Origin: a virus
Lineage: Duplodnaviria > Heunggongvirae > Uroviricota > Caudoviricetes
Direction: 5' to 3' (one strand)
IMG/VR virus record: IMGVR_UViG_3300025875_000002
Location: 1-64,000 of that record
Length of the DNA stretch: 64,000 bases
Below are positions 8,779 to 22,400 of this stretch, one piece after another. Every line of letters starts with the position of its first letter. Positions within the stretch are counted from its first letter, which is position 1. The notes beneath the pieces were generated by a model. It did no database searches. It had not been told where the DNA came from and worked only from the letters and a program-made list of their open reading frames with translations. A program made the position numbers and the translations under genes.

Positions 8779-8779
8779 C

Positions 8780-10420: not shown

Positions 10421-10433
10421 CTAGAACATCTAT

Positions 10434-10613
10434 GAGGCATGTAGTTTAATGGCAGAACAGCCCGGGTCTACTTTGCGGAATCGCGCGGTTTCGTAAGATC
10501 CCTCTAAATGCACATGAGGCTAAATAAGGTGCAGCCTGGGGCAGTATACCCTCACCCTGATAAGGTGTTGAAAGGTTAGCTGGTACCACGTTGGTTCAAA
10601 TCCAACCTGCCTC
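10434..10613 (+). tRNA. tRNA-like gene with ~110-nt internal insertion (interrupted tRNA or pseudo-tRNA)
   Basis: Canonical 5 prime half GAGGCAT-GTAGTTTAATGGCAGAACA and canonical 3 prime GTTGG-TTCAAAT-CCAAC-CTGCCTC-A whose acceptor strands pair; second alternative 5 prime acceptor GGGGCAG at 10528 also pairs with same 3 prime strand. Confidence 0.35.
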
Positions 10614-10665
10614 ACGCAAATCCCTAGGGACTAATCGTAACAAACTCGACTAGTTAGGACGTGCA

Positions 10666-10971
10666 TTGAAGGTAGCTAGTAAGTTGTGGGATCAACTCCC
10701 GAAGTTCATTCATGGTAACAAGACGGTTCGTGCCAAGATCAATAGTGACTCAGGCACGCCGGTACAGTTAACTTATGATGGTGCTCCTGATTGGAAGGAC
10801 ACCGAGATTACCAAGGCGAATATGATCACGTCAAAGATTGACGATGATGACTTCTTCTTTTCCGGTGACGCCCACCGTCCAATTCTTGACATTGATTATG
10901 AAGCTCAGCTAGTGCCTAGTTCAACACCTGGGCACTATCACCTTTCTGAGAGACTTGCAAGACAAGCTTGA
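10666..10971 (+). CDS. hypothetical protein
   Basis: ORF track. Confidence 0.3.
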   Translation: MKVASKLWDQLPKFIHGNKTVRAKINSDSGTPVQLTYDGAPDWKDTEITKANMITSKIDDDDFFFSGDAHRPILDIDYEAQLVPSSTPGHYHLSERLARQA

Positions 10972-11035
10972 CTTGCTCGACGAATGGTGATAGAATATAG
11001 TTAGTTGCGGGGCAGGCGAAATCCTGCCCCCTCAT

Positions 11036-11107
11036 GGGCGCGTAGTTCAGCGGTAGAACAATCGGTTTACACCCGATACGTCGTGGGTTCGATCCCCACC
11101 GTCGCCT
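11036..11107 (+). tRNA. tRNA-Val(UAC), acceptor stem imperfect
   Basis: D arm TAGTTCAGCGGTAGAACA, anticodon stem ATCGG/CCGAT loop TTTACAC, T arm GTGGG-TTCGATC-CCCAC; two acceptor mismatches; preceded by hairpin GGGGCAGG...CCTGCCCC. Confidence 0.4.
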
Positions 11108-11109
11108 AC

Positions 11110-11205
11110 GCACGGTTGAAGAACGGTTCGAATCCGTCTCGTAGTGTAATGGTAGCACGCAGCCTTAAGGTAAGTGCAGGTTCGAATCCTGTCCGGTCCA
11201 CTTTG
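11110..11205 (+). other. degenerate tRNA-like element(s)
   Basis: Two T-arm motifs (ACGG-TTCGAAT-CCGT; GCAGG-TTCGAAT-CCTGT) and a D-arm-like GTAGTGTAATGGTAGCAC but no complete cloverleaf; loop CTTAAGG would give anticodon UAA if real. Confidence 0.25.
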
Positions 11206-11237
11206 GGCCGGTAGTCTAATTGGTAGGACAACCGTAT

Positions 11238-11310
11238 GGGAGAGCAGCACGCTGGTAGGTGCAAGTGGCTTATATCCTCTCGACAGTGGGTTCGATTCCC
11301 ACCTCTCCTA
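11238..11310 (+). tRNA. tRNA-Ile(UAU)-like
   Basis: Acceptor GGGAGAG/CTCTCCT, D GCAC/GTGC, anticodon loop CTTATAT, T arm GTGGG-TTCGATT-CCCAC; preceded by an orphan 5 prime tRNA-half-like segment (GGGCCGGTAGTCTAATTGGTAGGAC). Confidence 0.45.
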
Positions 11311-11311
11311 C

Positions 11312-11701
11312 ATGGCAAAAACTGGTAAGGTAAAGATAGATATTGAGTTCAACCAACCGGCCCCGGAAGGGAGGCAAATTAAGTCACGTTCGGTAAGATA
11401 CTCTAAGTATTATGATGATAAGGGTAAACTATCTAACGAAGACTGGACAGAAGAAGTAACTTTTGAAGATGCTCCGGAAGAAACGGTGAAATCAGCTGAC
11501 CCAAAAGTAGTATCAAACAACTGGAAAGTGGTTGGTCATACTAATGACCCACCCTACTTTAACTTTGTGCCAGATGACGAAGCTGTCAACTATGCAACCG
11601 GTGGTTATGTAGATGGGCACATGAACCATGTTCATTTTGAACCGCTAGATGCTACAAAGCCTGACTTGAAAAAGTCTGATCCCGACGAAATAGAATTCTG
11701 A
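11312..11701 (+). CDS. hypothetical protein (start trimmed to ATG after tRNA)
   Basis: ORF track frame; ATG at 11312 immediately after tRNA 3 prime end. Confidence 0.4.
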   Translation: MAKTGKVKIDIEFNQPAPEGRQIKSRSVRYSKYYDDKGKLSNEDWTEEVTFEDAPEETVKSADPKVVSNNWKVVGHTNDPPYFNFVPDDEAVNYATGGYVDGHMNHVHFEPLDATKPDLKKSDPDEIEF

Positions 11702-11708
11702 GGGAATC

Positions 11709-11797
11709 TGGAAGTACAAGCCGAATGCTGGCCGACGGCATCGCACTTGAAATGCGACGAGGATAAAACCCTTGTGGGTTCGAACCCCACTGCTTCC
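11709..11797 (+). tRNA. tRNA-Ser(UGA), class II long variable arm
   Basis: Acceptor GGAAGTA/TGCTTCC, anticodon stem TCGCA/TGCGA loop CTTGAAA, long variable arm, T arm GTGGG-TTCGAAC-CCCAC. Confidence 0.6.
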
Positions 11798-11850
11798 GCA
11801 TTAAACCCTATTCATCAGAGTGGGGTCCCTTACTAAAGAAGGGAGGGCAA

Positions 11851-12135
11851 ATGAATCTGCTAGTTTGGTTCAGTATCGATAATGGAGAAATTGGTCGCAT
11901 TGTCAAGATGACTGCAATTGATCCTAAGATCGATTTGGACAAGCACTTTGCCAAGTGGTCGGTCAAGTCTGAGCACAGGCAGGCCAACGTATACACCTTC
12001 ACTAGAGAGCACATTGCTGTTCCTGAGCGCATCATGGCCGGTCGCGTTGAAGGTAATGCTCTTATTATGCATTACAATGGAGAGCGCCATAGAGCAATTT
12101 TGCCCTACTTTGTTACGATAGGAGAATTAGAATGA
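11851..12135 (+). CDS. hypothetical protein
   Basis: ORF track; RBS-like GAAGGGAGGG upstream. Confidence 0.35.
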   Translation: MNLLVWFSIDNGEIGRIVKMTAIDPKIDLDKHFAKWSVKSEHRQANVYTFTREHIAVPERIMAGRVEGNALIMHYNGERHRAILPYFVTIGELE

Positions 12136-12371
12136 CTTGGAAGGACAGAATGAATGCGGGCATCGGAGAGTATCTTCGGAGCATAGGGGTTGACGCGATT
12201 GAGGTCACCGGCTACAATGAAGAAGTAGACGTCTACTCCTGGGGTGGATGCGAGACTTGCGGTCCTGAGAAGGACTTTGAGTTGAGCATTTACTACAAGG
12301 ACAGCACTGGTAAGTCAAGGACTTACACGTATGCCAACACGTTCACTGAGTTCCTGAACAACATTACGTAA
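12132..12371 (+). CDS. hypothetical protein
   Basis: ORF track; overlapping start-stop ATGA. Confidence 0.35.
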   Translation: MTWKDRMNAGIGEYLRSIGVDAIEVTGYNEEVDVYSWGGCETCGPEKDFELSIYYKDSTGKSRTYTYANTFTEFLNNIT

Positions 12372-12411
12372 ATTATGCCCCGGTCCTTGGCCGGGGACCG
12401 GGAGGGGTTTA

Positions 12412-13074
12412 ATGCGTTACCGTATTGACCAAGTAAAAACTTGGTATGAAACCATGAATGATGTTATCAACATTGAAATCCTTTACACGGACATGCAAAA
12501 GACTAGCTACAACAAGGATGGTGTTTACATTCAGCTTGCACTGTCTACCCTCGACGCTTATTCAACCAGTGATGCAGCTATTACAGATATGATCTGTAAG
12601 AAGGCAGCGCAAGAGGTTTCGTCACCATACGAGTTCTATGATGCTATGCGGTACTACATGAAGGATATGGAGTACAACGGCAAGAGCTTGTTCGGTAACC
12701 CTAAGCCTAAGCCTTATAGCCCGATACCGTGGGAGACTCCGGTTAACAAGTACGGCTATCTTCTGATAGGCGATAGCATCTCTGGGAGTCCCATTTATTG
12801 GGAACAGGCAGACAAGATTGTTGAGTCCGCCAATATGAAGCCAATTAAGAAGTCCGGTAGTTCTAGTGACTTCGTGCATCAGATTGATCTTCTTCCTGGT
12901 CTTAATGCACGGGTAAAGCACCCGGTCACGAAGGAAGAGGCTCCCATTAAGGATATCATCATTAACCTTAACGACTACCACAAGTGGACCCGCGAGGCTA
13001 TTGCTGACTGGCTAGAAACTTTGGACGTGGACTTGCGCTTCAAGTCCAAGGATGATATCCTGAGGGAGAAGTAA
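12412..13074 (+). CDS. hypothetical protein
   Basis: ORF track; preceded by GC hairpin 12376-12402. Confidence 0.4.
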   Translation: MRYRIDQVKTWYETMNDVINIEILYTDMQKTSYNKDGVYIQLALSTLDAYSTSDAAITDMICKKAAQEVSSPYEFYDAMRYYMKDMEYNGKSLFGNPKPKPYSPIPWETPVNKYGYLLIGDSISGSPIYWEQADKIVESANMKPIKKSGSSSDFVHQIDLLPGLNARVKHPVTKEEAPIKDIIINLNDYHKWTREAIADWLETLDVDLRFKSKDDILREK

Positions 13075-13225
13075 GAGAAGGAGCGGCAGGCCAAGCTAGA
13101 CCAGCTTCGTGCTGATCTAAAGCAGGTCACCGATAAGATTCAGAAGTCCGCAAACGAAATGAAAGCCATGAAGCTAGCGGCTGCAAGTTTCGAAGAACAA
13201 ATCAAACAACTATTGGAGGAAGAAA

Positions 13226-13441
13226 ATGGCAAGGATTGACGAGAAGGCAGCAGAGCTTTCCGAGCAGCTTCGTGCAGAGCTTGGTGCTATTGAGTTGAGT
13301 GCAATGGAGTTCACCCTTGCAGATGCAATTCGTGAGGGTTCCGGTGTTACTACTCATGAGCAGAGCGGTTGGGGTGACGGCGCTAGCGCTTGTGCACTCA
13401 CTGCGGCCCTTGTATCTGCTAAGAGCAGAGGCTACGTCTGA
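13226..13441 (+). CDS. hypothetical protein
   Basis: ORF track; RBS GGAGGAAGAAAATG. Confidence 0.35.
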   Translation: MARIDEKAAELSEQLRAELGAIELSAMEFTLADAIREGSGVTTHEQSGWGDGASACALTAALVSAKSRGYV

Positions 13442-13473
13442 TCCAGTGTAGTTCCTGCAAGGAGCTAAAGCCC

Positions 13474-13920
13474 TTGGAGGCGTTCAGTGCGAACGCCTCC
13501 AAGGCAATTGGTCGTAATGGCGAGTGCAAGTCATGCAAATCAGAGTATGACAAGTCCTACCGTACTAAGAACCCCGAAAGGGTGCGAGAGCAGAGAAAGC
13601 AGTTCCGTAAAGACAATTCTGATCGGCTAAAGGAAAAGCATAAGCGATGGTATGCTGACAATAAGGTGTTAGTCAGGCGACGAGTCAAAGAAAAGACATA
13701 CGGCATACCTTGGTCAGAGGTCGAGTTAATGCTTGACAACCAAGATGGTTGCTGTGCAATTTGTGGCGATGAATTTGGAGACAATGTTCCTCAGATTGAT
13801 CACTGTCATGTGACTGGTAAGGTTCGTGGCCTTTTGTGCCGATCCTGTAACACATCTTTGGGCGGCTTTAAGGACGACGTAAATAACTTGCATGCAGCTA
13901 TAGCATACTTGGAGGATTAG
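13474..13920 (+). CDS. HNH endonuclease, Endonuclease VII-like
   Basis: DHCHVTGKVRGLLCRSCNTSLG signature, CAICG. Confidence 0.8.
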   Translation: MEAFSANASKAIGRNGECKSCKSEYDKSYRTKNPERVREQRKQFRKDNSDRLKEKHKRWYADNKVLVRRRVKEKTYGIPWSEVELMLDNQDGCCAICGDEFGDNVPQIDHCHVTGKVRGLLCRSCNTSLGGFKDDVNNLHAAIAYLED

Positions 13921-14282
13921 TGAGAAATTGGCTTGGACAGGATATCGTTCCTGGTAGTGTTGTCTATCGCGGTGCCCGGCAGGGTAATGGTTCTGATTAT
14001 AAGGTCGGTGTCGTTGAAAGCGTTGACGAATCTCAGGGTACGGCGCGGGTGGTATACAAGTATACTCTTGGCAGTACATACAGGATTACTCCTGATAGGG
14101 AATCAGCCTGGGGGCCGGTTGAGCTAGATTCAAAGGGTAGCCCTTCCATTAATAGTCTTATCGTTCTATCAGACAACGATCTAGCAAGGCTTGACCAAGC
14201 TAGATTCTGGATGCTAAAGTGGAAGAGTGATCCCAGTATGACAAAGGCAGAGTTAAGAGCGGTGCTTGACACTCTGATCTGA
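13920..14282 (+). CDS. hypothetical protein
   Basis: ORF track. Confidence 0.35.
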   Translation: MRNWLGQDIVPGSVVYRGARQGNGSDYKVGVVESVDESQGTARVVYKYTLGSTYRITPDRESAWGPVELDSKGSPSINSLIVLSDNDLARLDQARFWMLKWKSDPSMTKAELRAVLDTLI

Positions 14283-14300
14283 GTCTGCTACAATATAATC
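14264..14300 (+). promoter_or_regulatory. sigma70-like promoter (TTGACA N17 TACAAT) driving tRNA-Glu(CUC) leader
   Basis: gcTTGACActctgatctgagtctgcTACAATataat. Confidence 0.4.
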
Positions 14301-14385
14301 AGTGAGTTAAACAGGGTCAAACCTTCCGTAGATGGATATCTCACGATCACGAGGATGCGGCTTACCTCGCTAAAAACACGTACAT

Positions 14386-14457
14386 GCTCTCATAGGATAA
14401 CGGTTAGTCCGCTGGATTCTCAGTCCAAGAGTCGGGGTTCGATTCTCCGTGGGAGTA
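14386..14457 (+). tRNA. tRNA-Glu(CUC)
   Basis: Acceptor GCTCTCA/TGGGAGT (2 GU), D GGAT/GTCC, anticodon loop TTCTCAG, T arm CGGGG-TTCGATT-CTCCG. Confidence 0.5.
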
Positions 14458-14516
14458 CGTTCCTACCTTAATGTATCTTTGGTTTCGGATAACCATACAA
14501 ACAAGGAGGAAATGCA

Positions 14517-14816
14517 ATGATTAATGATTACAACATGATGATTGATGGCAAGAACTATGGTGTTGTCGCGGAAACGGGACAGTATTCATATGACTGGCAC
14601 ATTGCTGCTTTGTTGCAGGATGATGAGGGAAACCTTTTCTTTGCAGTAGACAGCGGGTGCTCATGCTACGGTTTTGGAGACGACCTTACTGAGAAGGACT
14701 TGATTCCGGTCAAGCACTGGTCAGAAGCTGTTGAGCTAGCCAAGGCAGAAATCGATGGTTATGATTTGACAGAGGATTCAATAGCTCAGTTCGCTGAGAA
14801 GTTGATGAAGGCTTGA
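14517..14816 (+). CDS. hypothetical protein
   Basis: ORF track; strong RBS AAGGAGGA; followed by terminator hairpin. Confidence 0.4.
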   Translation: MINDYNMMIDGKNYGVVAETGQYSYDWHIAALLQDDEGNLFFAVDSGCSCYGFGDDLTEKDLIPVKHWSEAVELAKAEIDGYDLTEDSIAQFAEKLMKA

Positions 14817-14821
14817 CAGGC

Positions 14822-14850
14822 GCTGATGGGACTGGTGCGCTGGTCCCATC
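14822..14850 (+). terminator. hairpin terminator candidate
   Basis: Inverted repeat CTGATGGGA...TCCCATCAG. Confidence 0.4.
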
Positions 14851-14878
14851 AGCAACCCGCTAGTAGATAGGACACACA

Positions 14879-15268
14879 ATGAGTACAATCGTTGCATTGA
14901 TAGGCCCAATCGAATACTGGTGGAACACCCCGGACGACCCGGATCGGTTTAACTCGCGGCCAGCTGTTGAGTACCGGGCATGGCGGATTATGTTACGAGA
15001 TTATCTTGTGAGTAACGGTTATTTGGTTTATAGTCCGCATCTGGCATTTTTAGGAAATTGGGATGAGCGGGCTCAGGCTCACAATGATTTCATTGTTGGT
15101 GTCAGCGATGTGGTTGTTTGCATGCGGCCCTTTGGTATCCCTGGCAAGGGCACCGATCATGAGTTGGAGTTGGCGAGAAAGCTTGGTAAGCCTGTAGTTT
15201 ATGCACCGCCAGGCACTGACCTACAGGATTTCATGGCTGTCATGATTGACACCTTGGTTCCCTGGTAA
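14879..15268 (+). CDS. nucleoside 2-deoxyribosyltransferase-like / Rossmann-fold nucleotide-binding protein (tentative)
   Basis: N-terminal VALIGPI and overall size and pattern resembling NDT/DUF4406-type folds; weak. Confidence 0.3.
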   Translation: MSTIVALIGPIEYWWNTPDDPDRFNSRPAVEYRAWRIMLRDYLVSNGYLVYSPHLAFLGNWDERAQAHNDFIVGVSDVVVCMRPFGIPGKGTDHELELARKLGKPVVYAPPGTDLQDFMAVMIDTLVPW

Positions 15269-15347
15269 GTCAGTAGTATGTGGTAGTGTTCAAGTTTGCT
15301 TTTTGAATCGAACCAAAGTATAATTGTTTCATGGGTTTAAGCGAATT

Positions 15348-15421
15348 GGGGTAATAGCTCATCTTGGTAGAGCGGCACGTTGCCAACGTGCAGGTGGCGG
15401 GATCGTGGCCCGTTTACCCCT
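15348..15421 (+). tRNA. tRNA-Gly(GCC)
   Basis: Acceptor GGGGTAA/TTACCCC, D GCTC/GAGC, anticodon stem GCACG/CGTGC loop TTGCCAA; atypical T loop ATCGTGG. Confidence 0.6.
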
Positions 15422-15423
15422 CC

Positions 15424-15504
15424 GGGTCTAACGCCAAACGGTCAGGCATTGGATTGTGACTCCATGAGTATATCCCACAGAGGGTTCGACTCCCTCTAGA
15501 CCCT
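15424..15504 (+). tRNA. tRNA-like, 81 nt, possible anticodon GUG (His?) with extended variable region
   Basis: Perfect acceptor GGGTCTA/TAGACCC, T arm GAGGG-TTCGACT-CCCTC; internal arms noncanonical. Confidence 0.35.
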
Positions 15505-15536
15505 CCATACTTCCCTACCATAGATAGGATGGCCCC

Positions 15537-15749
15537 ATGTGGGATTACAAGTACCGTACGCAGAAGAAAACGGTAGAGGCCCGAGCGAAATACGCCGGTG
15601 CAGATGTGCTATTGACAACTAGCCGTACATCAGTTAGATTTGCTATGAACGGTGGAATCATGTTCAAGGGCACTAGCGATCTTGAAGATTTCGCAAATGA
15701 TCTACATGCTGCTGCCAAGACAAGCAAAGAGATATTGGAGGCTCAGTGA
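15537..15749 (+). CDS. hypothetical protein
   Basis: ORF track. Confidence 0.3.
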   Translation: MWDYKYRTQKKTVEARAKYAGADVLLTTSRTSVRFAMNGGIMFKGTSDLEDFANDLHAAAKTSKEILEAQ

Positions 15750-16093
15750 GGACAAGTCAGTCCAGAACTTATTACGGTCCGTTTACCCTGGATGACCTTC
15801 GTACAATTGTGAAGGAAACAGAGGGATGGGACGGAAAGAAAATAGTTAGCGTTGAAGTTACTCCCGGTGACCGTCCGTGGGAATCTGACCAAGCGTACAT
15901 TGAGATTGGATAATCATGGGAGTTAAGGTGACGAGGACAGCAAAGGCTGCCGGCTCACAGATCACTCTACAGGACTTAATTGATCTTGTAGAGGCTTGCA
16001 AGGACTTCCCTAAGTCTGCTAGAGTGTCTGTGTCAGCTTCCAATGATATGAGGGAAGGTTCCTTCTACTCACTTACAGTCACGGAGCCCTAAT

Positions 16094-16684
16094 ATGACCA
16101 GAGCACTCATTGTTGTAGATATACAGAATGACTTTGTTGAGGGTGGTTCACTGCCGGTCGAGGGAGGAATCAAGCTCGGTTATCTTATTGCTAACGCTAT
16201 TTCTTCTCTTAAGAGTTTTGGTCTTTACGATCATGTTGTTGCGACAAAGGACTTTCACCTCCCAGGAGACTCCAACGGTGGACACATTTCCGACAACCCT
16301 AATTACGTGAGCACTTGGCCTAGCCATTGCATCCAGGGCACTACGGGTGCTATGTTTGTGCCTCAGGTTGAGGCCATCGCTGATGATTTTGAGGCGATCT
16401 TTTACAAGGGCCAGGGTCGTGCAGACTACTCTGGCTTCCAAGGGGTTGACGTCAACGGTGATCATCTGTACACTTGGCTTACAGCACGGAACGTTGACTC
16501 TGTTGATGTGATCGGTATTGCTACAGACCATTGCGTCAAGGTGACAGCCGAGGACGCAATCATGGCCGGTTTCGCTACGCGGATTCCGGCTTTACTTACT
16601 GTGGCAGTCGGCGGTCCAGATGCGGTTGTTGATACGATTGAGAAGATCAACCGTATGCAGGGACTGAATAGGAGAATCAATTGA
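16094..16684 (+). CDS. pncA: nicotinamidase/pyrazinamidase PncA (isochorismatase family)
   Basis: ALIVVDIQNDF, VVATKDFH, HCIQGT, VIGIATDHCV (catalytic Asp-Lys-Cys and metal-binding His pattern); near colinear with mycobacterial PncA. Confidence 0.85.
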   Translation: MTRALIVVDIQNDFVEGGSLPVEGGIKLGYLIANAISSLKSFGLYDHVVATKDFHLPGDSNGGHISDNPNYVSTWPSHCIQGTTGAMFVPQVEAIADDFEAIFYKGQGRADYSGFQGVDVNGDHLYTWLTARNVDSVDVIGIATDHCVKVTAEDAIMAGFATRIPALLTVAVGGPDAVVDTIEKINRMQGLNRRIN

Positions 16685-16944
16685 CCACAGTCGATAAGCT
16701 TGATAATACCGTAGCCAATGGAGACATTGTTGTTCAGGGCGGTGAATGGGGAATTTGGATGTATCGGGTTCGTCGTGATCCGGAAGAGACAAAGCGTTTA
16801 CACGTTCACGATATCAATGGCAATCATGATACAGTGATTAGTAAGAATCCCAGATATATTCTTAATCTCAGTACCTTGCTGGGCACCATGATGTCTAATG
16901 AGGAGATTGAGGAATTAGTTAAGCAAAAGGAAGACGATGCCTGA
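16681..16944 (+). CDS. hypothetical small protein (paralog set 1/3)
   Basis: Shares GD(I/K)VV...G motif with two downstream ORFs. Confidence 0.3.
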   Translation: MTTVDKLDNTVANGDIVVQGGEWGIWMYRVRRDPEETKRLHVHDINGNHDTVISKNPRYILNLSTLLGTMMSNEEIEELVKQKEDDA

Positions 16945-17167
16945 CGTTCACAGAAAGCCACTGCGGGCCGGTGACAAGGTAGCTTATGGCTCTACCACTA
17001 AGGGCTTAGTTATCGGAACCCTCCGGTATGATGAGGAAGAAAAGCATTCATATCATCTAGAGACACAGCATGGTATGTACTATCCTCAGAAGTGGGGACG
17101 GAACGGTATAGATAAAAACATTTTGAACTTGACATTGTACATGGAGGAACAAGATGCTAGACTGTAG
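16937..17167 (+). CDS. hypothetical small protein (paralog set 2/3)
   Basis: LRAGDKVAYGS...G...G.L..D..E similar to 17154..17387. Confidence 0.3.
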   Translation: MPDVHRKPLRAGDKVAYGSTTKGLVIGTLRYDEEEKHSYHLETQHGMYYPQKWGRNGIDKNILNLTLYMEEQDARL

Positions 17168-17387
17168 GGGAAACCTACTGCGAGAGGGTGACATTGTTGC
17201 CATTGGAGTCAACTCAGGTAACCTATTGACAGGTGAGCTTGTTCATGATCCAGACGACATACGATGGAAGCGCTTGACAGTGAGAGTTGAGGGTGGTAAG
17301 CTAAAGCGAGTTGGTAAGGCAAGCAGACGGGTTGTGAATCTGACAGCGTTCCATGAACAACAGTTTGACAGCCTTACTTATCTTTGA
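17154..17387 (+). CDS. hypothetical small protein (paralog set 3/3)
   Basis: LREGDIVAIGV...LLTGELVHDPDD similar to 16937..17167. Confidence 0.3.
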   Translation: MLDCRGNLLREGDIVAIGVNSGNLLTGELVHDPDDIRWKRLTVRVEGGKLKRVGKASRRVVNLTAFHEQQFDSLTYL

Positions 17388-17395
17388 TACACTAG
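17365..17395 (+). promoter_or_regulatory. sigma70-like promoter (TTGACA N17 TACACT) upstream of leader hairpin and tRNA-Phe
   Basis: tTTGACAgccttacttatctttgaTACACTag. Confidence 0.4.
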
Positions 17396-17451
17396 TTTTA
17401 CAAGGCCGGGAGCTGTCCCTGTAGCGAAAGCAGATCATACAGCCCGGTAAT

Positions 17452-17523
17452 GGCTCTTTGGCAGAGATGGTAATGCACACGGTTGAAGCCCGTGTTATCC
17501 CGGTTCGACTCCGGGGGGAGTCA
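17452..17523 (+). tRNA. tRNA-Phe(GAA)
   Basis: Acceptor GGCTCTT/GGGAGTC (GU pairs), anticodon stem CACGG/CCGTG loop TTGAAGC, T arm CCCGG-TTCGACT-CCGGG. Confidence 0.55.
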
Positions 17524-17580
17524 CTTAGAGTTTGTGGGTTGCTGTAGTCTACTGAAACCTTCTTCTTTTTCCCCTACAGA

Positions 17581-18483
17581 TTGAGGCACAACATGTACTT
17601 TGGCATTGCAATTGTCCTGGGAATCATTTTCATCATTGGCCTTCTTGTTGCCATCTTCTCTAAGTCCGACCGTCGGGGCGATAACTACGGTCGGACCGGC
17701 GGTGCCGGTGCTGCTGTAGCTGCTCTCCTTGTGCTTGGTATCGTGACTGCGTTGTTTAGCGCCACCACGGTCGATGCGCGGTCGGTCGGAATTCAGACCA
17801 GCTTCGGTAAGTACGATGCTACTCTTGATAATGGTTTCCACTGGACGGCTCCGTGGTCTAATGTGGAGCAGTTTTCTACGCAGGTTCAGTATCTAGAGCT
17901 TAAGGGCGACGGCGCTGTGCCGGTTTCGTTCCTGGGCGGTTCCTCTGGTACGGCTTCGGTTGTTGTTCGGTGGAGCATTGACTCTAAGGGTGCTGAGGAC
18001 CTTTGGAAGAAGTACAAGACTTTCGACAATGTTCGAGACCAGCTTGTTCGTTCTGAGGCTCAGAATGCCTTTAGGACTACCTTCTCTAACTACACCCCGG
18101 TTGACGCCATTGATGGTAACAACCTGAACAAGATCACCGCTGACGTGCAGAAGCTCCTTGCGGAGACTCTTGGCAAGAATGGTGTCGCTGTTGACTCCGT
18201 TTCTGTCACCAACGTTGGCCTTGGTGATCGTGCACAGACTAGCCTTGACCGTATCGTTGCTGCTAACGCTGATGTTGAGCGTGCAACTGCGGAGCAGGAG
18301 AAGGCTAAGATTGAGGCTGAGACTGCTCGCATTCGTGCTGAGTCTCAGACCCCTGAGTCTTTGCAGCGCTACTGCCTGGAGGTTATGAACAGTTGGAACG
18401 TTAACAACAACGGTCCTCTGCCTGCTACCTTCAACTGCCTTAGCGGTGACAGCAATGTCCAGACCGTTGTTCCAGTTGGCTAA
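17581..18483 (+). CDS. membrane-anchored SPFH/band-7 (HflK/C-like) domain protein
   Basis: N-terminal TM helix; VGIQTSFGKYDATLDNGFHWTAPWSNV...STQ resembles SPFH core; C-terminal coiled coil. Confidence 0.55.
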   Translation: MRHNMYFGIAIVLGIIFIIGLLVAIFSKSDRRGDNYGRTGGAGAAVAALLVLGIVTALFSATTVDARSVGIQTSFGKYDATLDNGFHWTAPWSNVEQFSTQVQYLELKGDGAVPVSFLGGSSGTASVVVRWSIDSKGAEDLWKKYKTFDNVRDQLVRSEAQNAFRTTFSNYTPVDAIDGNNLNKITADVQKLLAETLGKNGVAVDSVSVTNVGLGDRAQTSLDRIVAANADVERATAEQEKAKIEAETARIRAESQTPESLQRYCLEVMNSWNVNNNGPLPATFNCLSGDSNVQTVVPVG

Positions 18484-18676
18484 TGCCTTGGTGGGTTAAG
18501 GGTCCAGAGGATGAAGAAGATTCTCTAGGCACTTTTTATGAGGACTATGAAATGTCTTCGGCCTTGTCGCACTTCTTTAAGCTAGCGCAAGAGGAAGAGA
18601 CAGCAGACTTGCACTGGTCATTCTGATCTGTTATACTAAGTAGACGCCTGAGCATGCGTGGAAACTGCTCGTTAAT

Positions 18677-18752
18677 GCGTCAATATACCCTAACGCTACG
18701 AACGTTTTGAAAGGTTAATGGACACATGCAGGTTCGAATCCTGTTTGACGCA
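18677..18752 (+). tRNA. tRNA-like (perfect acceptor GCGTCAA/TTGACGC, T arm GCAGG-TTCGAAT-CCTGT; internal arms degenerate; possible ACG loop)
   Basis: 76 nt; acceptor and T arm canonical, D/anticodon arms cannot be folded canonically. Confidence 0.3.
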
Positions 18753-19091
18753 CTTGCATTAAAAGCAGAATAAGGCTATTATGCAGTTATGAATACATAT
18801 ATGGTTTCCGTAATGCTACAGGTACAAGTAGAGGCATTTAGTGATTCAGATGCCACGGAAGTAATTACTGATTGCTTTGGCGAAGGAGACTTCTGCGGAG
18901 TAGACGTACAAAGTGTTGAGGTTCTAGACTTTGAAGAATTGAGTTAAAATGGAGCACGTAATTTGGTGTAATTCTTGTCAATCAGAACCGGCAGTAGTTA
19001 CTATCGAAGTTGAATTTGATGGTGAGTGGGCTCCGCTTGATATAGGTGAGCAGTGCTTGACGAGACTGCAAGAGGATGGTAAGATGAACTA

Positions 19092-19487
19092 ATGGAAAGT
19101 AATCGTAAGGGTGACCTGGCGCAAGCCAGGGTCGAACTAAAAGCCTTAGAAAAAGGATATATAGCTTCTAGACCAGCAGTAGTTGCACGCTATGATCTAG
19201 TTGTAGATGACAATGATAGGCTATGGCGGGTGCAGGTAAAATATGCAGATGCCAAGCCAAGTAATACTCAAACCGCAGTATATGCAAGTTTAAAATACAC
19301 AGATAGGGCAGGAAAAGGACACTCATACACCTCAAAAGAGGTTGATGCTTTTGCAATTTATGTACCAAAAGTTGATGAAGTTCTTTGGTTTACATCTGAG
19401 CAAGCTTGTGGTAAGCTTAAGCTGTCGATCAAGATAGGTGGCAAACGACAGAAAAATAGCAATTGGTATGAAGATTATATTTGGTAA
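19092..19487 (+). CDS. PD-(D/E)xK family nuclease (possible homing endonuclease)
   Basis: KGDLAQARVELKALEKGY...YDLVVDD...LWRVQVKY pattern typical of PD-(D/E)xK core. Confidence 0.4.
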   Translation: MESNRKGDLAQARVELKALEKGYIASRPAVVARYDLVVDDNDRLWRVQVKYADAKPSNTQTAVYASLKYTDRAGKGHSYTSKEVDAFAIYVPKVDEVLWFTSEQACGKLKLSIKIGGKRQKNSNWYEDYIW

Positions 19488-19493
19488 AACAAT

Positions 19494-19567
19494 GATTCAT
19501 TAGCTCAATTGGTCAGAGCACTCGCCTGTCACGCGAGAGGTTGCCGGTTCAAGTCCGGTATGGATCG
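19494..19567 (+). tRNA. tRNA-Asp(GUC)
   Basis: Acceptor GATTCAT/ATGGATC, D GCTC/GAGC, anticodon stem CTCGC/GCGAG loop CTGTCAC, T arm GCCGG-TTCAAGT-CCGGT. Confidence 0.6.
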
Positions 19568-19578
19568 CGCAGTATTAT

Positions 19579-19654
19579 CCTCCGTTAGCTTAGTCAGGTT
19601 AAAAGCGCTTGATTGTCAATCAAGAGAGCACGGGTTCAAATCCCGTACGGAGGA
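19579..19654 (+). tRNA. tRNA-Asp(GUC), second copy
   Basis: Acceptor CCTCCGT/ACGGAGG, D GCTT/AAGC, anticodon stem CTTGA/TCAAG loop TTGTCAA, T arm ACGGG-TTCAAAT-CCCGT. Confidence 0.55.
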
Positions 19655-19705
19655 CTTGGGCAGCCTGGGTGCTGTCCTGGCGAGAGGCAAGACTTGAATA
19701 GGTAT

Positions 19706-20008
19706 ATGACGGAGTTCGCCGGTGTTGTGACAAAGAAAGACAAACGGCGAACTTCCCGTAAGTTGATAATCCAACTTAAAACAGGACGATCTTGCATAGA
19801 CTGCAAGGAATTTTACCCGCATTACATGATGGACTTTGACCACGTGCGAGGCATCAAAATCGGAAACATTTACGATCTGGCAAAAACCGGAGATATAGCT
19901 AAGCTCTTAGCAGAAGTTGCTAAGTGCGATTTGGTGTGCTCAAACTGCCATAGACACCGTACGTTCATGAGAGCGGCGGGGGTTGACAGGAAGGCAAAGA
20001 GCAGCTAG
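19706..20008 (+). CDS. HNH endonuclease (start trimmed to ATG downstream of tRNAs)
   Basis: CIDCKEFYPHYMMDFDHVRG...AKCDLVCSNCH; paralog of 9875..10291. Confidence 0.65.
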   Translation: MTEFAGVVTKKDKRRTSRKLIIQLKTGRSCIDCKEFYPHYMMDFDHVRGIKIGNIYDLAKTGDIAKLLAEVAKCDLVCSNCHRHRTFMRAAGVDRKAKSS

Positions 20009-20040
20009 ACTGATGCCAACGACAATGAAGGAGGGCCTCA

Positions 20041-20244
20041 ATGATTGATGTTAGCCGTGGGGATAAGGTTCGTGGCAGCTTCGGGGTTGCGTATGTTACT
20101 GACGTAGGGTATGGTTTCATTACTGACCCTGCGACGGATGAGCAGGTCGGCCCGGTTGACAGGCTGGTCCGTATCCTACAGTACCGTGGTGACAAGCCGG
20201 TGTATAAGTACACGAACCGAAGTGAGATTGAGGAGATTTTGTGA
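20041..20244 (+). CDS. hypothetical protein
   Basis: ORF track; RBS GAAGGAGGG. Confidence 0.35.
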   Translation: MIDVSRGDKVRGSFGVAYVTDVGYGFITDPATDEQVGPVDRLVRILQYRGDKPVYKYTNRSEIEEIL

Positions 20245-20423
20245 ATGAAGTCAATGCCGTCAAGTTTGTTGATGAAGCTACTCGTAGGGCGGAAGATTTT
20301 GTTATGCAAGTCTTTGATAAGTCAGGCACGAAGCTCGACGAGCATGAAATGAGAGCATTAAAGACCGGCATTTTGGCCGGTGTCGCATCGACGCTAGAGA
20401 TGGTTGGTGAGCAAACACCATGA
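20241..20423 (+). CDS. hypothetical protein
   Basis: ORF track, overlapping GTGA. Confidence 0.3.
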   Translation: MNEVNAVKFVDEATRRAEDFVMQVFDKSGTKLDEHEMRALKTGILAGVASTLEMVGEQTP

Positions 20424-20647
20424 GCTTTCTTATTTTCATTACATTAGTCTATGCTGCTTATTTGCTTTATATGCTTAATGATAACCTTGTTAAGTTTGGT
20501 GAAAACTTTAACGACTGGGTAATTGATCAGCTAGAGTCAGAAGTTAATGAGCCTGAATATGTCATGACAGTCAATAGCGCTGTTGGTGAGACCGTCCAGG
20601 AAACTTTTGATCGTCACGCTCAAAATCGTATTACCCGCGAGGGTTGA
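20420..20647 (+). CDS. small membrane protein
   Basis: N-terminal hydrophobic helix FLIFITLVYAAYLLYML. Confidence 0.3.
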   Translation: MSFLIFITLVYAAYLLYMLNDNLVKFGENFNDWVIDQLESEVNEPEYVMTVNSAVGETVQETFDRHAQNRITREG

Positions 20648-20672
20648 CAAGCACAACACAACCTGCTAGAAT
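20644..20672 (+). promoter_or_regulatory. sigma70-like promoter (TTGACA N17 TAGAAT)
   Basis: ggTTGACAagcacaacacaacctgcTAGAATat. Confidence 0.4.
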
Positions 20673-20822
20673 ATAGAGACAAGAACTTCTCGCCAGGCGT
20701 CGGCGGGATATGGAAGAGAGAGTGTAAGAAGCTCGACACTACTCAGTGTCACAATAGGTTAAGATCACCACCGGCAGTATTGTTGCTAAGTCTGCGGAAC
20801 CTAAAACCTCTTCCCCTTTATG

Positions 20823-20894
20823 GGCGTATAGTAGCAATGGTAAAACTTGGGTCTCTTACACCTAAATTCTCGGTTCGAATCCGAGTGCGCCTAC
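20823..20894 (+). tRNA. tRNA-Lys(CUU)-like (weak D stem)
   Basis: Acceptor GGGCGTA/TGCGCCT, anticodon stem TGGGT/ACCTA loop CTCTTAC, T arm CTCGG-TTCGAAT-CCGAG. Confidence 0.4.
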
Positions 20895-21013
20895 GTGACT
20901 ACAATACAATGTCAGCTAAATGGCTGCTACAGAAGAGAACAAGAGTTGGGGACGTTTGCCTCGCTAAGCTTCATGTGGTTTTGCTCTCAGGAGCATTACG
21001 AAAAGGGTAAGGT

Positions 21014-21442
21014 ATGGGCAGAAGAACGTGGTCTTGCTTGGGACGAGAAAAAGGTATATGTGGGATAATGCCTCCTTCAAACATGAAAGAGTATATGCTT
21101 GCCCGCTACCACCGGCGTAGACAAGAATGGATTGACTCACAAGGGGCTAAATGCGCTAATTGTGGAGCAACGGAAGAATTAGAAATTGACCACATCAATC
21201 GTGAAGATAAGTCCTACAATATAGGACAGATTCTCACAAGCGGCAATGAAAATATGTTGCGGGCAGAGCTTGCCAAGTGTCAGGTTCTGTGCCATACTTG
21301 TCACAAGGATAAGTCAGCGCAAGAGGCCGCTGTAGAGCATGGTGGTGGTAAGGCTGGTAAAAAGAATTGCAAGTGTGATCCTTGCAGGCTAAAGAAAAAT
21401 GAATACTTGCGCGAATGGAAGCGAAAGAATCGTGCAAAATAA
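21014..21442 (+). CDS. HNH endonuclease (family with 32997..33350 and 46606..46962)
   Basis: KCANCGATEELEIDHINRE...AKCQVLCHTCHKDK; stop abuts tRNA-Lys 5 prime end. Confidence 0.7.
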   Translation: MGRRTWSCLGREKGICGIMPPSNMKEYMLARYHRRRQEWIDSQGAKCANCGATEELEIDHINREDKSYNIGQILTSGNENMLRAELAKCQVLCHTCHKDKSAQEAAVEHGGGKAGKKNCKCDPCRLKKNEYLREWKRKNRAK

Positions 21443-21515
21443 ACCGCTCTGGTGAAATGGCAATCACCCTGGACTTTTACTCCATGAGTTGTGGGTTCGA
21501 CCCCCACGGGCGGTA
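21443..21515 (+). tRNA. tRNA-Lys(UUU)
   Basis: Acceptor ACCGCTC/GGGCGGT, D GTGA/TCAC, anticodon loop CTTTTAC, T arm GTGGG-TTCGACC-CCCAC. Confidence 0.6.
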
Positions 21516-21516
21516 C

Positions 21517-22023
21517 ATGACTAAATATGATAATCTAGTGTTCGTAGACGTAGAAGCAACGGACCTAACGCCATTCAGCGGAGAAATGACAGAGTTTGGC
21601 GCAGTACACTACGGATCAAGAAAGACTTTCCACGGCGTCTTGTGGGATGCGATTCCTAATCCAGAGATTCCAGCAAAGCCAATGATTGTTGGAGAGGCTT
21701 ACCCTTTGGAGCCGGTCATGGCCGGGTTCAGAAGTTGGCTAAAGACAAATGTCAAAGGTAGACCAGTATTCGTAAGTGATAATCCAGCATATGACTTCAT
21801 GTGGATAGCTTATTACTTCGACAAGGCTCTGCGAGATAATCCTTTTGGTCACTCTGGCCGTAGGATTTCTGACTTTTGGGCCGGTCTCCAAGGAGATTGG
21901 TCACGCACACAGCAATGGAAAAAGTATCGTGTAACAGTACACGATCATAATCCCGTCAATGATTCAATGGGTAATGTTGAGGCTTTTGAAAAGATCATCA
22001 AGACCTACGAATCAATAGTCTGA
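21517..22023 (+). CDS. DEDDh-type 3 prime-5 prime exonuclease (DnaQ-like)
   Basis: Exo I-like LVFVDVEATDL motif at N-terminus; start placed at ATG right after tRNA. Confidence 0.5.
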   Translation: MTKYDNLVFVDVEATDLTPFSGEMTEFGAVHYGSRKTFHGVLWDAIPNPEIPAKPMIVGEAYPLEPVMAGFRSWLKTNVKGRPVFVSDNPAYDFMWIAYYFDKALRDNPFGHSGRRISDFWAGLQGDWSRTQQWKKYRVTVHDHNPVNDSMGNVEAFEKIIKTYESIV

Positions 22024-22172
22024 AAGGTTACTAATGGCAAACAGTGAGATGGTCACGATCCCTATGACTGAGTATCTTTCGCTTAAGGAAGATTCACTTT
22101 GGCGAAGCTGTGTTGAAGATGCAGGGGTTGACAACTGGGAAGGGTTCAGCTATGCTATGAGAGACTTCTACA

Positions 22173-22358
22173 GTGAGGATGACGATGACTGATCTTAAGA
22201 CTCCCGAAGAATGGCAGGTTATCAAGGGATTCCGGGTTTATGATCCTGATGGTTGGCGCAGGGCTGGTGATCCCGCTTGGGACGAGCCAATTACTGAGGC
22301 TGACTTCGATCTTCGTGCAGGACAGAGTACGATTGGTCCGCTTAATTTAGGTTCCTAG
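22173..22358 (+). CDS. hypothetical protein
   Basis: ORF track. Confidence 0.25.
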   Translation: MRMTMTDLKTPEEWQVIKGFRVYDPDGWRRAGDPAWDEPITEADFDLRAGQSTIGPLNLGS

Positions 22359-22382
22359 TTACCTTAATAACTAGGTGGTGGA

Positions 22383-22400
22383 GGACGAGATTTCTCGTCC
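22383..22400 (+). terminator. hairpin terminator candidate
   Basis: GGACGAGAtttCTCGTCC. Confidence 0.35.

What the first reader, a model, noticed from the sequence alone, without database searches (positions are those of the whole stretch)
16094..16684. Nicotinamidase PncA encoded by the phage, part of a dispersed NAD-metabolism gene set
The ORF is nearly colinear with bacterial PncA and retains the catalytic and metal-binding residues. Nicotinamide is the product released by NADase defence effectors, so PncA could channel it into host Preiss-Handler salvage. In the same window sit a NadR-kinase-like P-loop protein (3236..3787), NADAR (8154..8600), pnuC-nadR, and a SLOG protein (60645..61016). 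Five or more NAD-related functions in one window is far more than chance for a phage accessory region.
Basis: partly seen in the sequence, partly recalled or inferred. Interest (0 to 1): 0.7.

Follow-up and report, generated by a model that had tools for sequence, protein, structure and literature searches.

The report
Phage nicotinamidase tied to NAD salvage
A large actinobacterial phage carries an intact, conserved copy of nicotinamidase (PncA), the enzyme that turns nicotinamide into nicotinic acid, and related phages place this gene beside known NAD-rebuilding genes, which suggests an untested extra route for phages to restore NAD during infection.

Summary
The ORF at 16094..16684 (+, 196 aa) is real and is a PncA-type nicotinamidase. 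Its best solved-structure match is M. tuberculosis PncA (E=3e-52). The Asp9/Lys105/Cys147 triad and the Asp53/His55/His64/His78 metal site are intact. The AlphaFold model (pLDDT 96) matches only nicotinamidases at the top. The gene is not a stray passenger. It sits in conserved synteny in seven inspected phage contexts (contigs of 8-140 kb), pairwise dN/dS is 0.13, its GC matches the phage, and it falls in a clade separate from bacterial PncA.

The "five NAD functions" claim is overcounted. Only PncA, PnuC and NadR are NAD-salvage genes, and pnuC-nadR is the published NARP3 module. NADAR is common to the whole phage lineage. The SLOG gene is common in actinophages. The P-loop protein resembles a thymidylate kinase, not the NadR kinase.

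The PncA-NAD link gains independent support elsewhere. Other viral contigs carry contiguous pnuC-pncA-nadR cassettes, and two carry pncA clustered with a nicotinate phosphoribosyltransferase.

Most likely role: the enzyme recycles nicotinamide through the Preiss-Handler route and complements NARP3. The enzyme itself is ordinary. The association is a new, untested variant of known phage NAD-reconstitution systems.

The parts
16094..16684 (+). pncA: PncA-type nicotinamidase, 196 aa (triad D9/K105/C147; metal site D53/H55/H64/H78)
   Evidence: ORF; PF00857 54 bits; 3PL1 E=3e-52; invariant catalytic residues; AF2 pLDDT 96.1; Foldseek top 18 hits are all nicotinamidases, 3PL1 TMq 0.88; dN/dS 0.13.
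16083..16086 (+). Shine-Dalgarno GGAG, 7 nt upstream of the pncA ATG
   Evidence: Read directly from the sequence.
53348..54127 (+). pnuC: nicotinamide riboside transporter, 259 aa (NARP3-type component)
   Evidence: PF04973 E=8.7e-40; TIGR01528 75.5 bits against a cutoff of 42.45; homologs annotated PnuC in Microbacterium and Sinorhizobium phages.
54006..55034 (+). nadR-like bifunctional NMN adenylyltransferase / ribosylnicotinamide kinase without an HTH domain, 342 aa (NARP3-type component). The first 122 nt overlap the end of pnuC.
   Evidence: AAA_28 at residues 156-308; matches NadR structures 9x6f, 6gye, 1lw7, 8x7f over residues ~44-333; TIGR01526 match over residues 10-310; invariant PPTxGH and GxxxxGKT motifs in 31 homologs.
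14879..15268 (+). 129-aa protein with a nucleoside 2-deoxyribosyltransferase / DNPH1-like N-glycosidase fold, syntenic with pncA in this phage clade. Its substrate is unknown and its membership in the NAD set is only a possibility.
   Evidence: Family of 49 proteins that shares contigs with PncA homologs (gene maps); AF2 pLDDT 88.9; Foldseek top hits are NDT/DNPH1; weak DUF4406 and PHROG 355 signals.

Best explanation
The gene encodes a catalytically competent, metal-dependent nicotinamidase (EC 3.5.1.19) that hydrolyses nicotinamide to nicotinate plus ammonia through the Cys147 thioester mechanism of PncA. The phage lineage has kept it for a long time as an auxiliary NAD-salvage gene. During infection, nicotinamide is released by NAD-consuming enzymes, including NADase defence effectors such as Sir2/TIR types. 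The enzyme would deamidate it so that a nicotinate phosphoribosyltransferase can convert it to NaMN and on to NAD through NadD/NadE (Preiss-Handler route). That transferase would be host PncB here, and it is phage-encoded in some other phages. This internal recycling branch would complement the phage's NARP3-type PnuC-NadR module, which makes NAD from imported nicotinamide riboside. Shown here: enzyme family, intact active site, fold, purifying selection, conservation in a phage clade, co-occurrence with pnuC-nadR, and physical linkage to pnuC/nadR/NAPRTase in other phages. Inferred: substrate, direction of flux, dependence on host PncB/NadD/NadE, and any anti-defence benefit.
For: Enzyme identity:
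- E=3e-52 to Mtb PncA.
- Triad, metal site and substrate-stacking Trp invariant in 120/120 homologs.
- pLDDT 96 model whose 18 best PDB fold matches are all solved nicotinamidases.

Maintained function:
- dN/dS 0.13 at dS 0.65 against the closest relative, and 0.11-0.20 in the other computable pairs.
- Gene GC 49% against window GC 47%.
- Seven inspected phage contexts (contigs from 8 to 140 kb) share the synteny terminase ... pncA - Band_7 - lysin - thioredoxin.
- In an NJ tree these sequences form a clade apart from Mycobacterium/Saccharothrix PncA.

Link to NAD salvage:
- pnuC-nadR lies in the same genome, and this pair was experimentally shown to be the NARP3 counter-defence (PMC13464706).
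- PncA and NadR homologs share contigs of 133313, 136544 and 63398 bp.
- In IMG/VR, 4 contigs appear in both the PncA and the NadR scans.
- L040/L031 and L032 carry contiguous pnuC-pncA-nadR. L024 carries pncA-pnuC-nadR-NAPRTase. L020 carries pnuC-nadR ... NAPRTase-orf-pncA.
- The linked PRTase scores 374 and 355 bits on the NCBIfam nicotinate-PRTase equivalog NF005529 (cutoff 378), and its only significant PDB matches are NAPRTases.
- The cassette PncAs keep all catalytic residues. They are partly closest to bacterial PncAs, which implies repeated acquisition and repeated linkage.

Host: WhiB, and terminase 54% identical to Streptomyces phages, point to an actinobacterial host. From established knowledge, such hosts typically salvage nicotinamide via PncA-PncB rather than NAMPT.
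Against: - No biochemical or genetic data exist for any phage PncA in the searched literature.
- In this window pncA lies 37 kb from pnuC-nadR and is not co-transcribed with it.
- No NAPRTase, NadD or NadE was found in the 64-kb window or the next ~7 kb, so the route depends entirely on an unidentified host. About 62 kb of the source contig could not be inspected.
- Removing nicotinamide would also relieve product inhibition of Sir2-type NADases, which could help the defence rather than the phage.
- The NCBIfam PncA equivalog cutoff is not reached (87 vs 174 bits). This is uninformative, because authentic Mtb PncA also fails it (120 bits).
- Only 5 of 69 PncA-bearing viral loci have NadR within 10 kb, so the linkage recurs but is not general.
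Confidence: 0.6

Rival explanations
1. The enzyme is a true nicotinamidase, but its selected role is to remove nicotinamide rather than to rebuild NAD. By lowering nicotinamide it would relieve product inhibition and base exchange on NAD-consuming enzymes the phage relies on (its own or host Sir2-like deacylases or ADP-ribosyltransferases), as in the yeast Pnc1-Sir2 relationship.
For: In L024 a Sir2-family protein (PHROG 2162, E=1e-38) lies about 2 kb downstream of the pncA-pnuC-nadR-NAPRTase cluster. Nicotinamide inhibition of sirtuins and its relief by Pnc1 is established knowledge. NADAR, an ADP-ribose-related hydrolase fold, is present in the genome.
Against: No Sir2 or ADP-ribosyltransferase domain appears among the Pfam calls for the window plus 7 kb. 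The recurrent neighbours are NAD-synthesis genes (NadR, PnuC, NAPRTase), which points to synthesis. Lowering nicotinamide would equally disinhibit defence NADases.
Confidence: 0.17
2. The protein belongs to the PncA subfamily but acts on a different amide in the infected cell, such as a pyrazinamide-like or modified-base precursor or NMN/NR, so its link to nicotinamide salvage is only apparent.
For: The isochorismatase-like hydrolase superfamily is functionally diverse: lower-ranked fold hits include carbamoylsarcosine, maleamate, biuret and triuret amidases. PncA enzymes are known to accept analogues such as pyrazinamide. A conserved N-glycosidase-fold protein lies 0.8 kb upstream. The protein scores below the NCBIfam equivalog cutoff.
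Against: It is 49-55% identical to Mtb PncA and keeps every active-site, metal-binding and substrate-stacking residue. The Asp-His-His(-His) metal site is characteristic of nicotinamidases. The 18 best fold hits are all nicotinamidases. Authentic Mtb PncA also misses the NCBIfam cutoff. The genomic neighbours in other phages are NAD-salvage genes.
Confidence: 0.08
3. The gene is a recently captured host gene with no function for the phage (a neutral passenger).
For: Its closest characterised relatives are actinobacterial chromosomal PncAs. It lies in an accessory region rich in tRNAs, homing endonucleases and small ORFs. Cultured relatives lack it.
Against: dN/dS is 0.13, and synonymous sites are saturated between clade members while all catalytic residues stay invariant. 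The position is syntenic across phages whose PncAs have diverged to about 50% identity. Composition matches the phage. The phage sequences form their own clade.
Confidence: 0.04

Closest known systems
Mycobacterium tuberculosis PncA (pyrazinamidase/nicotinamidase, PDB 3PL1)
   Same: Colinear, 49-55% identical, with the same Asp-Lys-Cys triad, Asp-His-His-His metal site, Trp68-equivalent and cis-peptide positions. Predicted fold TMq 0.88 / TMt 0.93.
   Different: Encoded by a phage rather than a chromosome. About 10 residues longer, with short insertions (for example 'SNGG' before His64) shared by the phage clade. GC content is about 49% rather than high-GC actinobacterial. Activity is untested.
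NARP3 (phage PnuC-like transporter plus HTH-less NadR-like enzyme; Bas30_87/Bas30_86; Sci Adv 2026, PMC13464706)
   Same: The window carries an adjacent pnuC-nadR pair with the same domain content. The NadR-like protein's best PDB match is 9x6f, 'nicotinamide-nucleotide adenylyltransferase'. The purpose is the same: raising NAD during infection.
   Different: NARP3 as published is a two-gene module in Enterobacteriaceae phages that uses imported nicotinamide riboside, and the paper does not mention PncA. Here a nicotinamidase is added, unlinked in this window but inserted between pnuC and nadR in other phages. Gene order is pnuC then nadR, and the host is probably an actinobacterium.
NARP2 / KVP40 NadV-NatV (NAMPT plus NMNAT-Nudix)
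   Same: Also recycles the nicotinamide left by NAD cleavage back into NAD (PMC13464706 introduction; PMC9503650).
   Different: NARP2 keeps the amide (Nam to NMN to NAD) and is self-sufficient. The PncA route deamidates (Nam to nicotinate to NaMN to NaAD to NAD) and needs NAPRTase, NadD and NadE, none of which was found in this window.
Preiss-Handler gene clusters of gut jumbo phages (pncB-nadD-nadE; Microbiome 2024, PMC11662467) and the PncA-like gp275 of phage G (PMC12484599)
   Same: These are computational reports that phages can encode deamidated-route NAD genes. 'Phage-encoded ... pncA' is mentioned, and phage G has an annotated PncA-like ORF.
   Different: Those are jumbo phages over 200 kb. 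pncA is mentioned only in passing, with no conservation, linkage or mechanism analysis. Here the gene defines a clade in ~130-140-kb actinophage-like genomes and is linked to NARP3-type genes.
Yeast Pnc1 (nicotinamidase controlling Sir2 through nicotinamide clearance)
   Same: Same enzyme family and fold (3v8e/2h0r are among the fold hits). It is the precedent for a regulatory rather than purely biosynthetic role.
   Different: It is eukaryotic and only about 25% identical. No Sir2 gene was seen in this window.

Membership tests
PncA-type nicotinamidase (isochorismatase-like hydrolase superfamily) | Isochorismatase-like domain (Pfam PF00857) above the gathering score | tested here: met
   54.3 bits against a cutoff of 27, residues 4-165.
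PncA-type nicotinamidase (isochorismatase-like hydrolase superfamily) | Catalytic triad Asp-Lys-Cys (Mtb D8/K96/C138) | tested here: met
   D9/K105/C147 align and are invariant in 120/120 homologs. Also seen in the HMMER alignment to 3PL1.
PncA-type nicotinamidase (isochorismatase-like hydrolase superfamily) | Divalent-metal site Asp-His-His(-His) (Mtb D49/H51/H57/H71), which separates nicotinamidases from other superfamily members | tested here: met
   D53/H55/H64/H78 are present and invariant in 120/120 homologs.
PncA-type nicotinamidase (isochorismatase-like hydrolase superfamily) | Oxyanion-hole cis-peptide residues (Mtb I133-A134) and the substrate-stacking Trp68 | tested here: inconclusive
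   I142-A143 and W75 are conserved in sequence. The cis-peptide geometry was not examined in the model.
PncA-type nicotinamidase (isochorismatase-like hydrolase superfamily) | Overall fold closest to solved nicotinamidases | tested here: met
   pLDDT 96.1. Foldseek ranks 1-18 are nicotinamidases from Mtb, Pyrococcus, Acinetobacter, Leishmania, yeast, Bacillus, Streptococcus and Drosophila.
PncA-type nicotinamidase (isochorismatase-like hydrolase superfamily) | NCBIfam equivalog NF008623 score at or above the curated cutoff | tested here: not met
   87 bits against 174. The control shows the model is narrow: experimentally proven Mtb PncA scores only 120 bits, so this failure does not argue against function.
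PncA-type nicotinamidase (isochorismatase-like hydrolase superfamily) | Nicotinamide deamidase activity | not testable with these tools
   Needs an enzyme assay or genetic complementation.
NARP3 phage NAD+ reconstitution pathway | PnuC-type nicotinamide riboside transporter | tested here: met
   53348..54127: PF04973 E=8.7e-40; TIGR01528 75.5 bits against 42.45.
NARP3 phage NAD+ reconstitution pathway | HTH-less NadR-like enzyme with NMNAT and RNK domains | tested here: met
   54006..55034 matches NadR structures 9x6f/6gye/1lw7/8x7f across both domains. PPTxGH and Walker A motifs are invariant. It is 342 aa with no N-terminal extension for an HTH. The NCBIfam NadR models hit below their cutoffs.
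NARP3 phage NAD+ reconstitution pathway | The two genes form one adjacent cassette | tested here: met
   Same strand, overlapping by 122 nt.
NARP3 phage NAD+ reconstitution pathway | PncA is a component of the pathway | tested here: not met
   The defining paper has no occurrence of PncA or nicotinamidase. PncA is therefore an addition to NARP3, not a member of it.
NARP3 phage NAD+ reconstitution pathway | Restores NAD+ and overcomes NAD-depleting defence | not testable with these tools
   Needs infection assays.
Complete phage-encoded Preiss-Handler pathway | Phage-encoded nicotinate phosphoribosyltransferase, NadD and NadE | tested here: not met
   No NAPRTase homolog in the window by tblastn. 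No such Pfam domains in the gene maps covering window 1..~71 kb. NAPRTase is present next to pncA in other phages (L020, L024).

The most novel reading that the evidence does not exclude
PncA, alone or with a phage NAPRTase, defines a further phage NAD+ reconstitution branch. This deamidating Preiss-Handler route would recycle the nicotinamide released by NADase defence systems and would be deployed together with NARP3-type PnuC-NadR as a three- or four-gene module. It would be needed for phages to overcome NAD-depleting immunity in hosts such as Actinobacteria that lack NAMPT.
Probability: 0.35. Interest if true: 0.7.

Novelty: new variant of a known kind. Interest (0 to 1): 0.5.

Why it matters
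NAD depletion is a major bacterial antiviral strategy. Three phage NAD-reconstitution pathways (NARP1-3) have been proven experimentally, and all of them avoid the deamidated route. A conserved phage nicotinamidase would extend that picture to hosts whose only nicotinamide salvage runs through PncA-PncB, especially one that recurs inside pnuC-nadR cassettes and beside nicotinate phosphoribosyltransferase. That group of hosts includes many Actinobacteria. The finding gives a simple, testable prediction: a benefit that depends on host pncB. The enzyme itself is textbook. The value lies in the context and in the candidate cassettes for experiments.

Tried and rejected
- Near-identity DNA search in the phage collection found only 64-bp hits in Streptomyces phage band-7 genes. 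The genome is not a deposited phage.
- The 'NadR-kinase-like' reading of 3236..3787 was rejected. It shows no similarity to the window's NadR (E=79), no PDB match beyond the P-loop, and no similarity to the positionally equivalent DNMK gene of L013. Its homologs in 89 Streptomyces phages are annotated thymidylate kinase.
- I considered a link between the HAD phosphatase next to nadR and the 'phage phosphatases versus RES NADase' work. That phosphatase is detected in that work as a Macro-domain protein in NARP1 operons, so no link was established.
- The NCBIfam equivalog failure was set aside as evidence against PncA, because authentic Mtb PncA also fails.
- The single-sequence NadR scan of IMG/VR returned nothing because the patterns were too specific. 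Repeating it with an alignment worked.
- Look-up of ORF 62266..62739 was not on record. The extension beyond the window came from the SLOG gene instead and showed no further NAD genes up to ~71 kb.
- No supplementary tables were available to count pncA in the jumbo-phage study.
- Rfam found no riboswitch near the NAD genes.

Full report
**1. Observation**

A GGAG motif lies 7 nt upstream of the ATG. The preceding ORF stops 1 nt before the start, and the following ORF overlaps the stop by 4 nt. The gene therefore sits in a tightly packed run of small co-directional genes, bounded by tRNA genes at 15348..15423 and 17452..17524.

The window is one end of a 133,313-bp metagenomic contig, ENA ERZ27293403 k141_2035252. 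All long ORFs are on one strand. The window holds 37 tRNA genes and a tmRNA. The terminase is about 54% identical to those of 127-133-kb Streptomyces phages. A WhiB-domain gene is present, and just beyond the window there is a faint Lsr2 DNA-binding-domain hit. So this is a large phage of an actinobacterial host, with no close deposited relative.

**2. What the protein is**

- Pfam places it in the isochorismatase-like hydrolases (54 bits against 27).
- Against all PDB sequences the best match by far is M. tuberculosis pyrazinamidase/nicotinamidase PncA (3PL1, E=3e-52). Next come nicotinamidases from other organisms.
- In an alignment with Mtb PncA and 120 database homologs, these positions are all conserved in the window protein: the nucleophile triad D9/K105/C147, the metal ligands D53/H55/H64/H78, Trp75 and the I142-A143 pair.
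- The triad and metal ligands are invariant in all 120 homologs.
- An AlphaFold2 model from a 48-sequence alignment has mean pLDDT 96.1.
- The 18 best Foldseek matches in the PDB are all solved nicotinamidases, led by 3PL1 (TMq 0.88, TMt 0.93). Other amidases of the superfamily rank lower.
- The NCBIfam PncA equivalog is the best NCBIfam hit but falls below its cutoff (87 against 174 bits). As a control, the experimentally proven Mtb enzyme also fails (120 bits). That model is simply narrow.

I conclude with high confidence that this is a functional nicotinamidase. Activity itself is inferred.

**3. Is it a stable phage gene?**

The exact protein occurs on four contigs from different samples. 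The large protein database holds about 65 clusters at 45-86% identity with the same length (196-210 aa) before the bacterial PncAs begin.

I inspected seven genomic contexts across this range: the source contig, contigs of 136, 138, 139.6 and 128 kb, and fragments of 24 and 22 kb. All are phage-like and share the order terminase ... pncA - Band_7 protein - peptidoglycan hydrolase - thioredoxin.

A neighbour-joining tree puts these sequences and the short-contig sequences in one clade, separate from the Mycobacterium/Mycolicibacterium/Saccharothrix PncAs. The tree has no bootstrap support and covers only the top 120 hits.

Nei-Gojobori dN/dS is 0.13 against the closest relative (dS 0.65). It is 0.11-0.20 for the more distant pairs where dS can still be computed. 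The gene's GC (49%) matches the phage (47%), not a high-GC donor.

The gene is therefore old in this lineage and under purifying selection. It is rare among cultured phages: a tblastn search of 50,697 phage records gives 7 hits at 36% identity or less, none in Streptomyces phages.

**4. The 'dispersed NAD gene set'**

Two further genes are solid.
- 53348..54127 is a PnuC transporter (PF04973 E=9e-40; TIGR01528 above cutoff).
- The overlapping 54006..55034 is a NadR-like enzyme. It matches all four solved NadR proteins across the adenylyltransferase and kinase domains, and its PPTxGH and Walker A motifs are invariant.
- This pair corresponds to NARP3. NARP3 was shown experimentally in 2026 to import nicotinamide riboside, convert it to NAD+ and defeat Sir2-HerA. 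That paper does not mention PncA.

The other three items do not hold up as NAD-metabolism genes.
- The P-loop protein at 3236..3787 hits Pfam AAA_28 (35 bits) but has no similarity to the window's own NadR kinase domain (E=79). It has no significant PDB match. It belongs to a family present in 89 Streptomyces phages that lack PncA, where it is annotated thymidylate kinase.
- NADAR at 8154..8600 is correctly identified. It occurs in 125 Streptomyces phage records, so it is close to a core gene of the wider lineage. It is an ADP-ribose-related hydrolase fold rather than a salvage enzyme (PMC9503650).
- The YAcAr SLOG protein at 60645..61016 is found in 933 phage records, mostly mycobacteriophages, and is annotated 'DprA-like'.

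The count is therefore three genes at two loci, not five or more. The window by itself cannot show that they cooperate.

**5. Independent evidence that phage PncA belongs with NAD salvage**

Using contig length as a fingerprint, PncA and NadR homologs share the contigs of 133,313, 136,544 and 63,398 bp.

More telling evidence comes from IMG/VR. Scans with a PncA alignment gave 69 loci, and scans with a NadR alignment gave 40 loci. Four contigs are shared, and in all four the genes are close together.
- In L040 (a 136.5-kb contig; L031 is the same element from a sister sample) and in L032, the order is pnuC - pncA - nadR with gaps or overlaps of a few bases.
- In L024 (a 159-kb contig) the order is pncA - pnuC - nadR - phosphoribosyltransferase.
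- In L020 it is pnuC - nadR - two ORFs - phosphoribosyltransferase - one ORF - pncA.

The phosphoribosyltransferase scores 374 and 355 bits on the NCBIfam nicotinate phosphoribosyltransferase equivalog (cutoff 378). Its nine best NCBIfam hits are NAPRTase models, and its only significant PDB sequence matches are NAPRTases.

The flanking genes are phage-like: HNH and Endo VII nucleases, an exonuclease, a recombination directionality factor, and a protein 39% identical to one in Microbacterium phage Magritte.

The cassette PncAs keep every catalytic residue. Those of L040, L032 and L024 are closest to bacterial PncAs rather than to the window's clade. This suggests separate acquisitions that ended up in the same company.

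Across all 69 PncA-bearing viral loci, PnuC lies within 10 kb in 8, NadR in 5 and a NAPRTase-type gene in 8. The association recurs but is not universal.

**6. Mechanism**

The best-supported reading is as follows. The phage enzyme deamidates nicotinamide, the product of NAD cleavage by Sir2/TIR-type defence NADases and by other NAD consumers. A nicotinate phosphoribosyltransferase then makes NaMN from the nicotinate, and NadD/NadE complete NAD synthesis. In this phage the downstream enzymes must come from the host: no NAPRTase, NadD or NadE was found in the window or the next 7 kb. Some other phages bring their own NAPRTase.

This internal recycling branch would run in parallel with PnuC-NadR, which uses external nicotinamide riboside. 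It would make particular sense in Actinobacteria, which typically salvage nicotinamide through PncA-PncB rather than NAMPT (this last point rests on established knowledge and was not tested here).

What is shown: enzyme identity, conservation and gene linkage. What is inferred: substrate, direction of flux, dependence on the host, and any counter-defence benefit.

The main rival is that nicotinamide clearance itself is the point, relieving inhibition of NAD-consuming enzymes as with yeast Pnc1 and Sir2. A Sir2-family gene lies near the L024 cluster, but none was seen in this window.

The other rivals are a different amide substrate and a functionless passenger gene. The active-site conservation argues against the first, and the selection data argue against the second.

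**7. Comparison with what is known, and novelty**

Phage NAD salvage is well established.
- NadV/NadM/NadR surveys: PMC9503650.
- NARP1 and NARP2: bioRxiv 10.1101/2024.02.11.579819.
- NARP3: PMC13464706.
- Preiss-Handler clusters pncB-nadD-nadE in gut jumbo phages: PMC11662467.

Phage pncA has been noted only in passing: one sentence in the jumbo-phage paper, and an annotated 'PncA-like' ORF of unknown role in phage G. The NARP papers and the Iyer/Aravind survey do not mention it. Searches for pncA with pnuC, nadR and phage found no description of the cassette.

The enzyme is an ordinary new member of the PncA family. Three things appear new but untested: its fixation in a clade of ~130-140-kb actinophage-like genomes, its co-occurrence with NARP3-type genes, and the pnuC-pncA-nadR(-NAPRTase) cassettes. 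Together they amount to a new variant of known phage NAD-reconstitution systems.

Interest is moderate. The result is unsurprising in kind, but it gives a concrete, testable extension of an active field.

Noticed in passing
window 27491..27888 (+): Full-length match to GOLLD RNA (Rfam RF02032): 203.5 bits against a gathering score of 150, model positions 1-416. It is embedded in the tRNA-rich region of the phage.
   Followed up: no
window 8706..47031 (tRNAs); 29767..30075 (tmRNA): 37 tRNA genes by ARAGORN plus a phage-encoded tmRNA (Rfam 104 bits; tag peptide ADYDVVAEAEAILAEASLISA). One tRNA at 8706..8779 has the amber-reading anticodon CTA, which ARAGORN labels 'Pyl'. It may be a suppressor tRNA.
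   Followed up: partly
window 14879..15268 (+): A 129-aa protein whose family (49 members) is confined to this phage clade and shares contigs with PncA. The model (pLDDT 89) has a nucleoside 2-deoxyribosyltransferase / DNPH1-like N-glycosidase fold, with an invariant Glu95 in a GTDHE motif. The substrate is unknown. A role on pyridine nucleotides is only a speculation.
   Followed up: partly
window 54006..54127: The pnuC stop (54127) lies 122 nt downstream of the nadR start (54006). The conserved NadR N-terminus, with the PPTxGH adenylyltransferase motif, falls inside this overlap. A metagenome gene caller therefore truncated NadR to 298 aa. The overlap is either real and unusually long or reflects an extended pnuC reading frame.
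   Followed up: partly
window 55268..55717 (+); L040 12615..13208; L017-L029: A HAD phosphatase (PF25109 HAD_PNKP; weak class-B acid phosphatase signal) lies two genes downstream of nadR. Weak homologs (26-31% identity) lie 4-8 kb upstream of pncA in 10 of the 69 viral PncA loci. A different nucleotidase (NT5C) follows the pnuC-pncA-nadR cassettes of L040, L031 and L032. This may be a recurring nucleotidase partner of the NAD genes.
   Followed up: partly
L024 1238..5011 and 7115..7846: A 159-kb viral contig carries a four-gene cluster pncA - pnuC - nadR - nicotinate phosphoribosyltransferase. About 2 kb downstream is a Sir2-family protein (PHROG 2162, E=1e-38), an NAD consumer that releases nicotinamide.
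   Followed up: partly
window 2790..3239, 6433..6933, 7488..8105, 13474..13920, 33640..34359, 34622..35137, 39241..39789, 60123..60536(-): At least eight HNH or Endonuclease VII genes, probably homing endonucleases, are scattered through the window. One of them is the only clearly minus-strand gene.
   Followed up: no
window 36033..37067, 40289..40981, 41045..43198, 43775..44686, 47576..47896: Other accessory genes: a radical SAM enzyme, a faint cytosine-C5 DNA methylase match, RIIA- and RIIB-like proteins, and a WhiB-family regulator. WhiB supports an actinobacterial host.
   Followed up: no
L005/L007/L009 (relatives of the window phage), about 4-6 kb upstream of pncA: Several related phages encode a Ro60/TROVE plus vWA protein upstream of pncA. 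No such gene was seen in the window.
   Followed up: no
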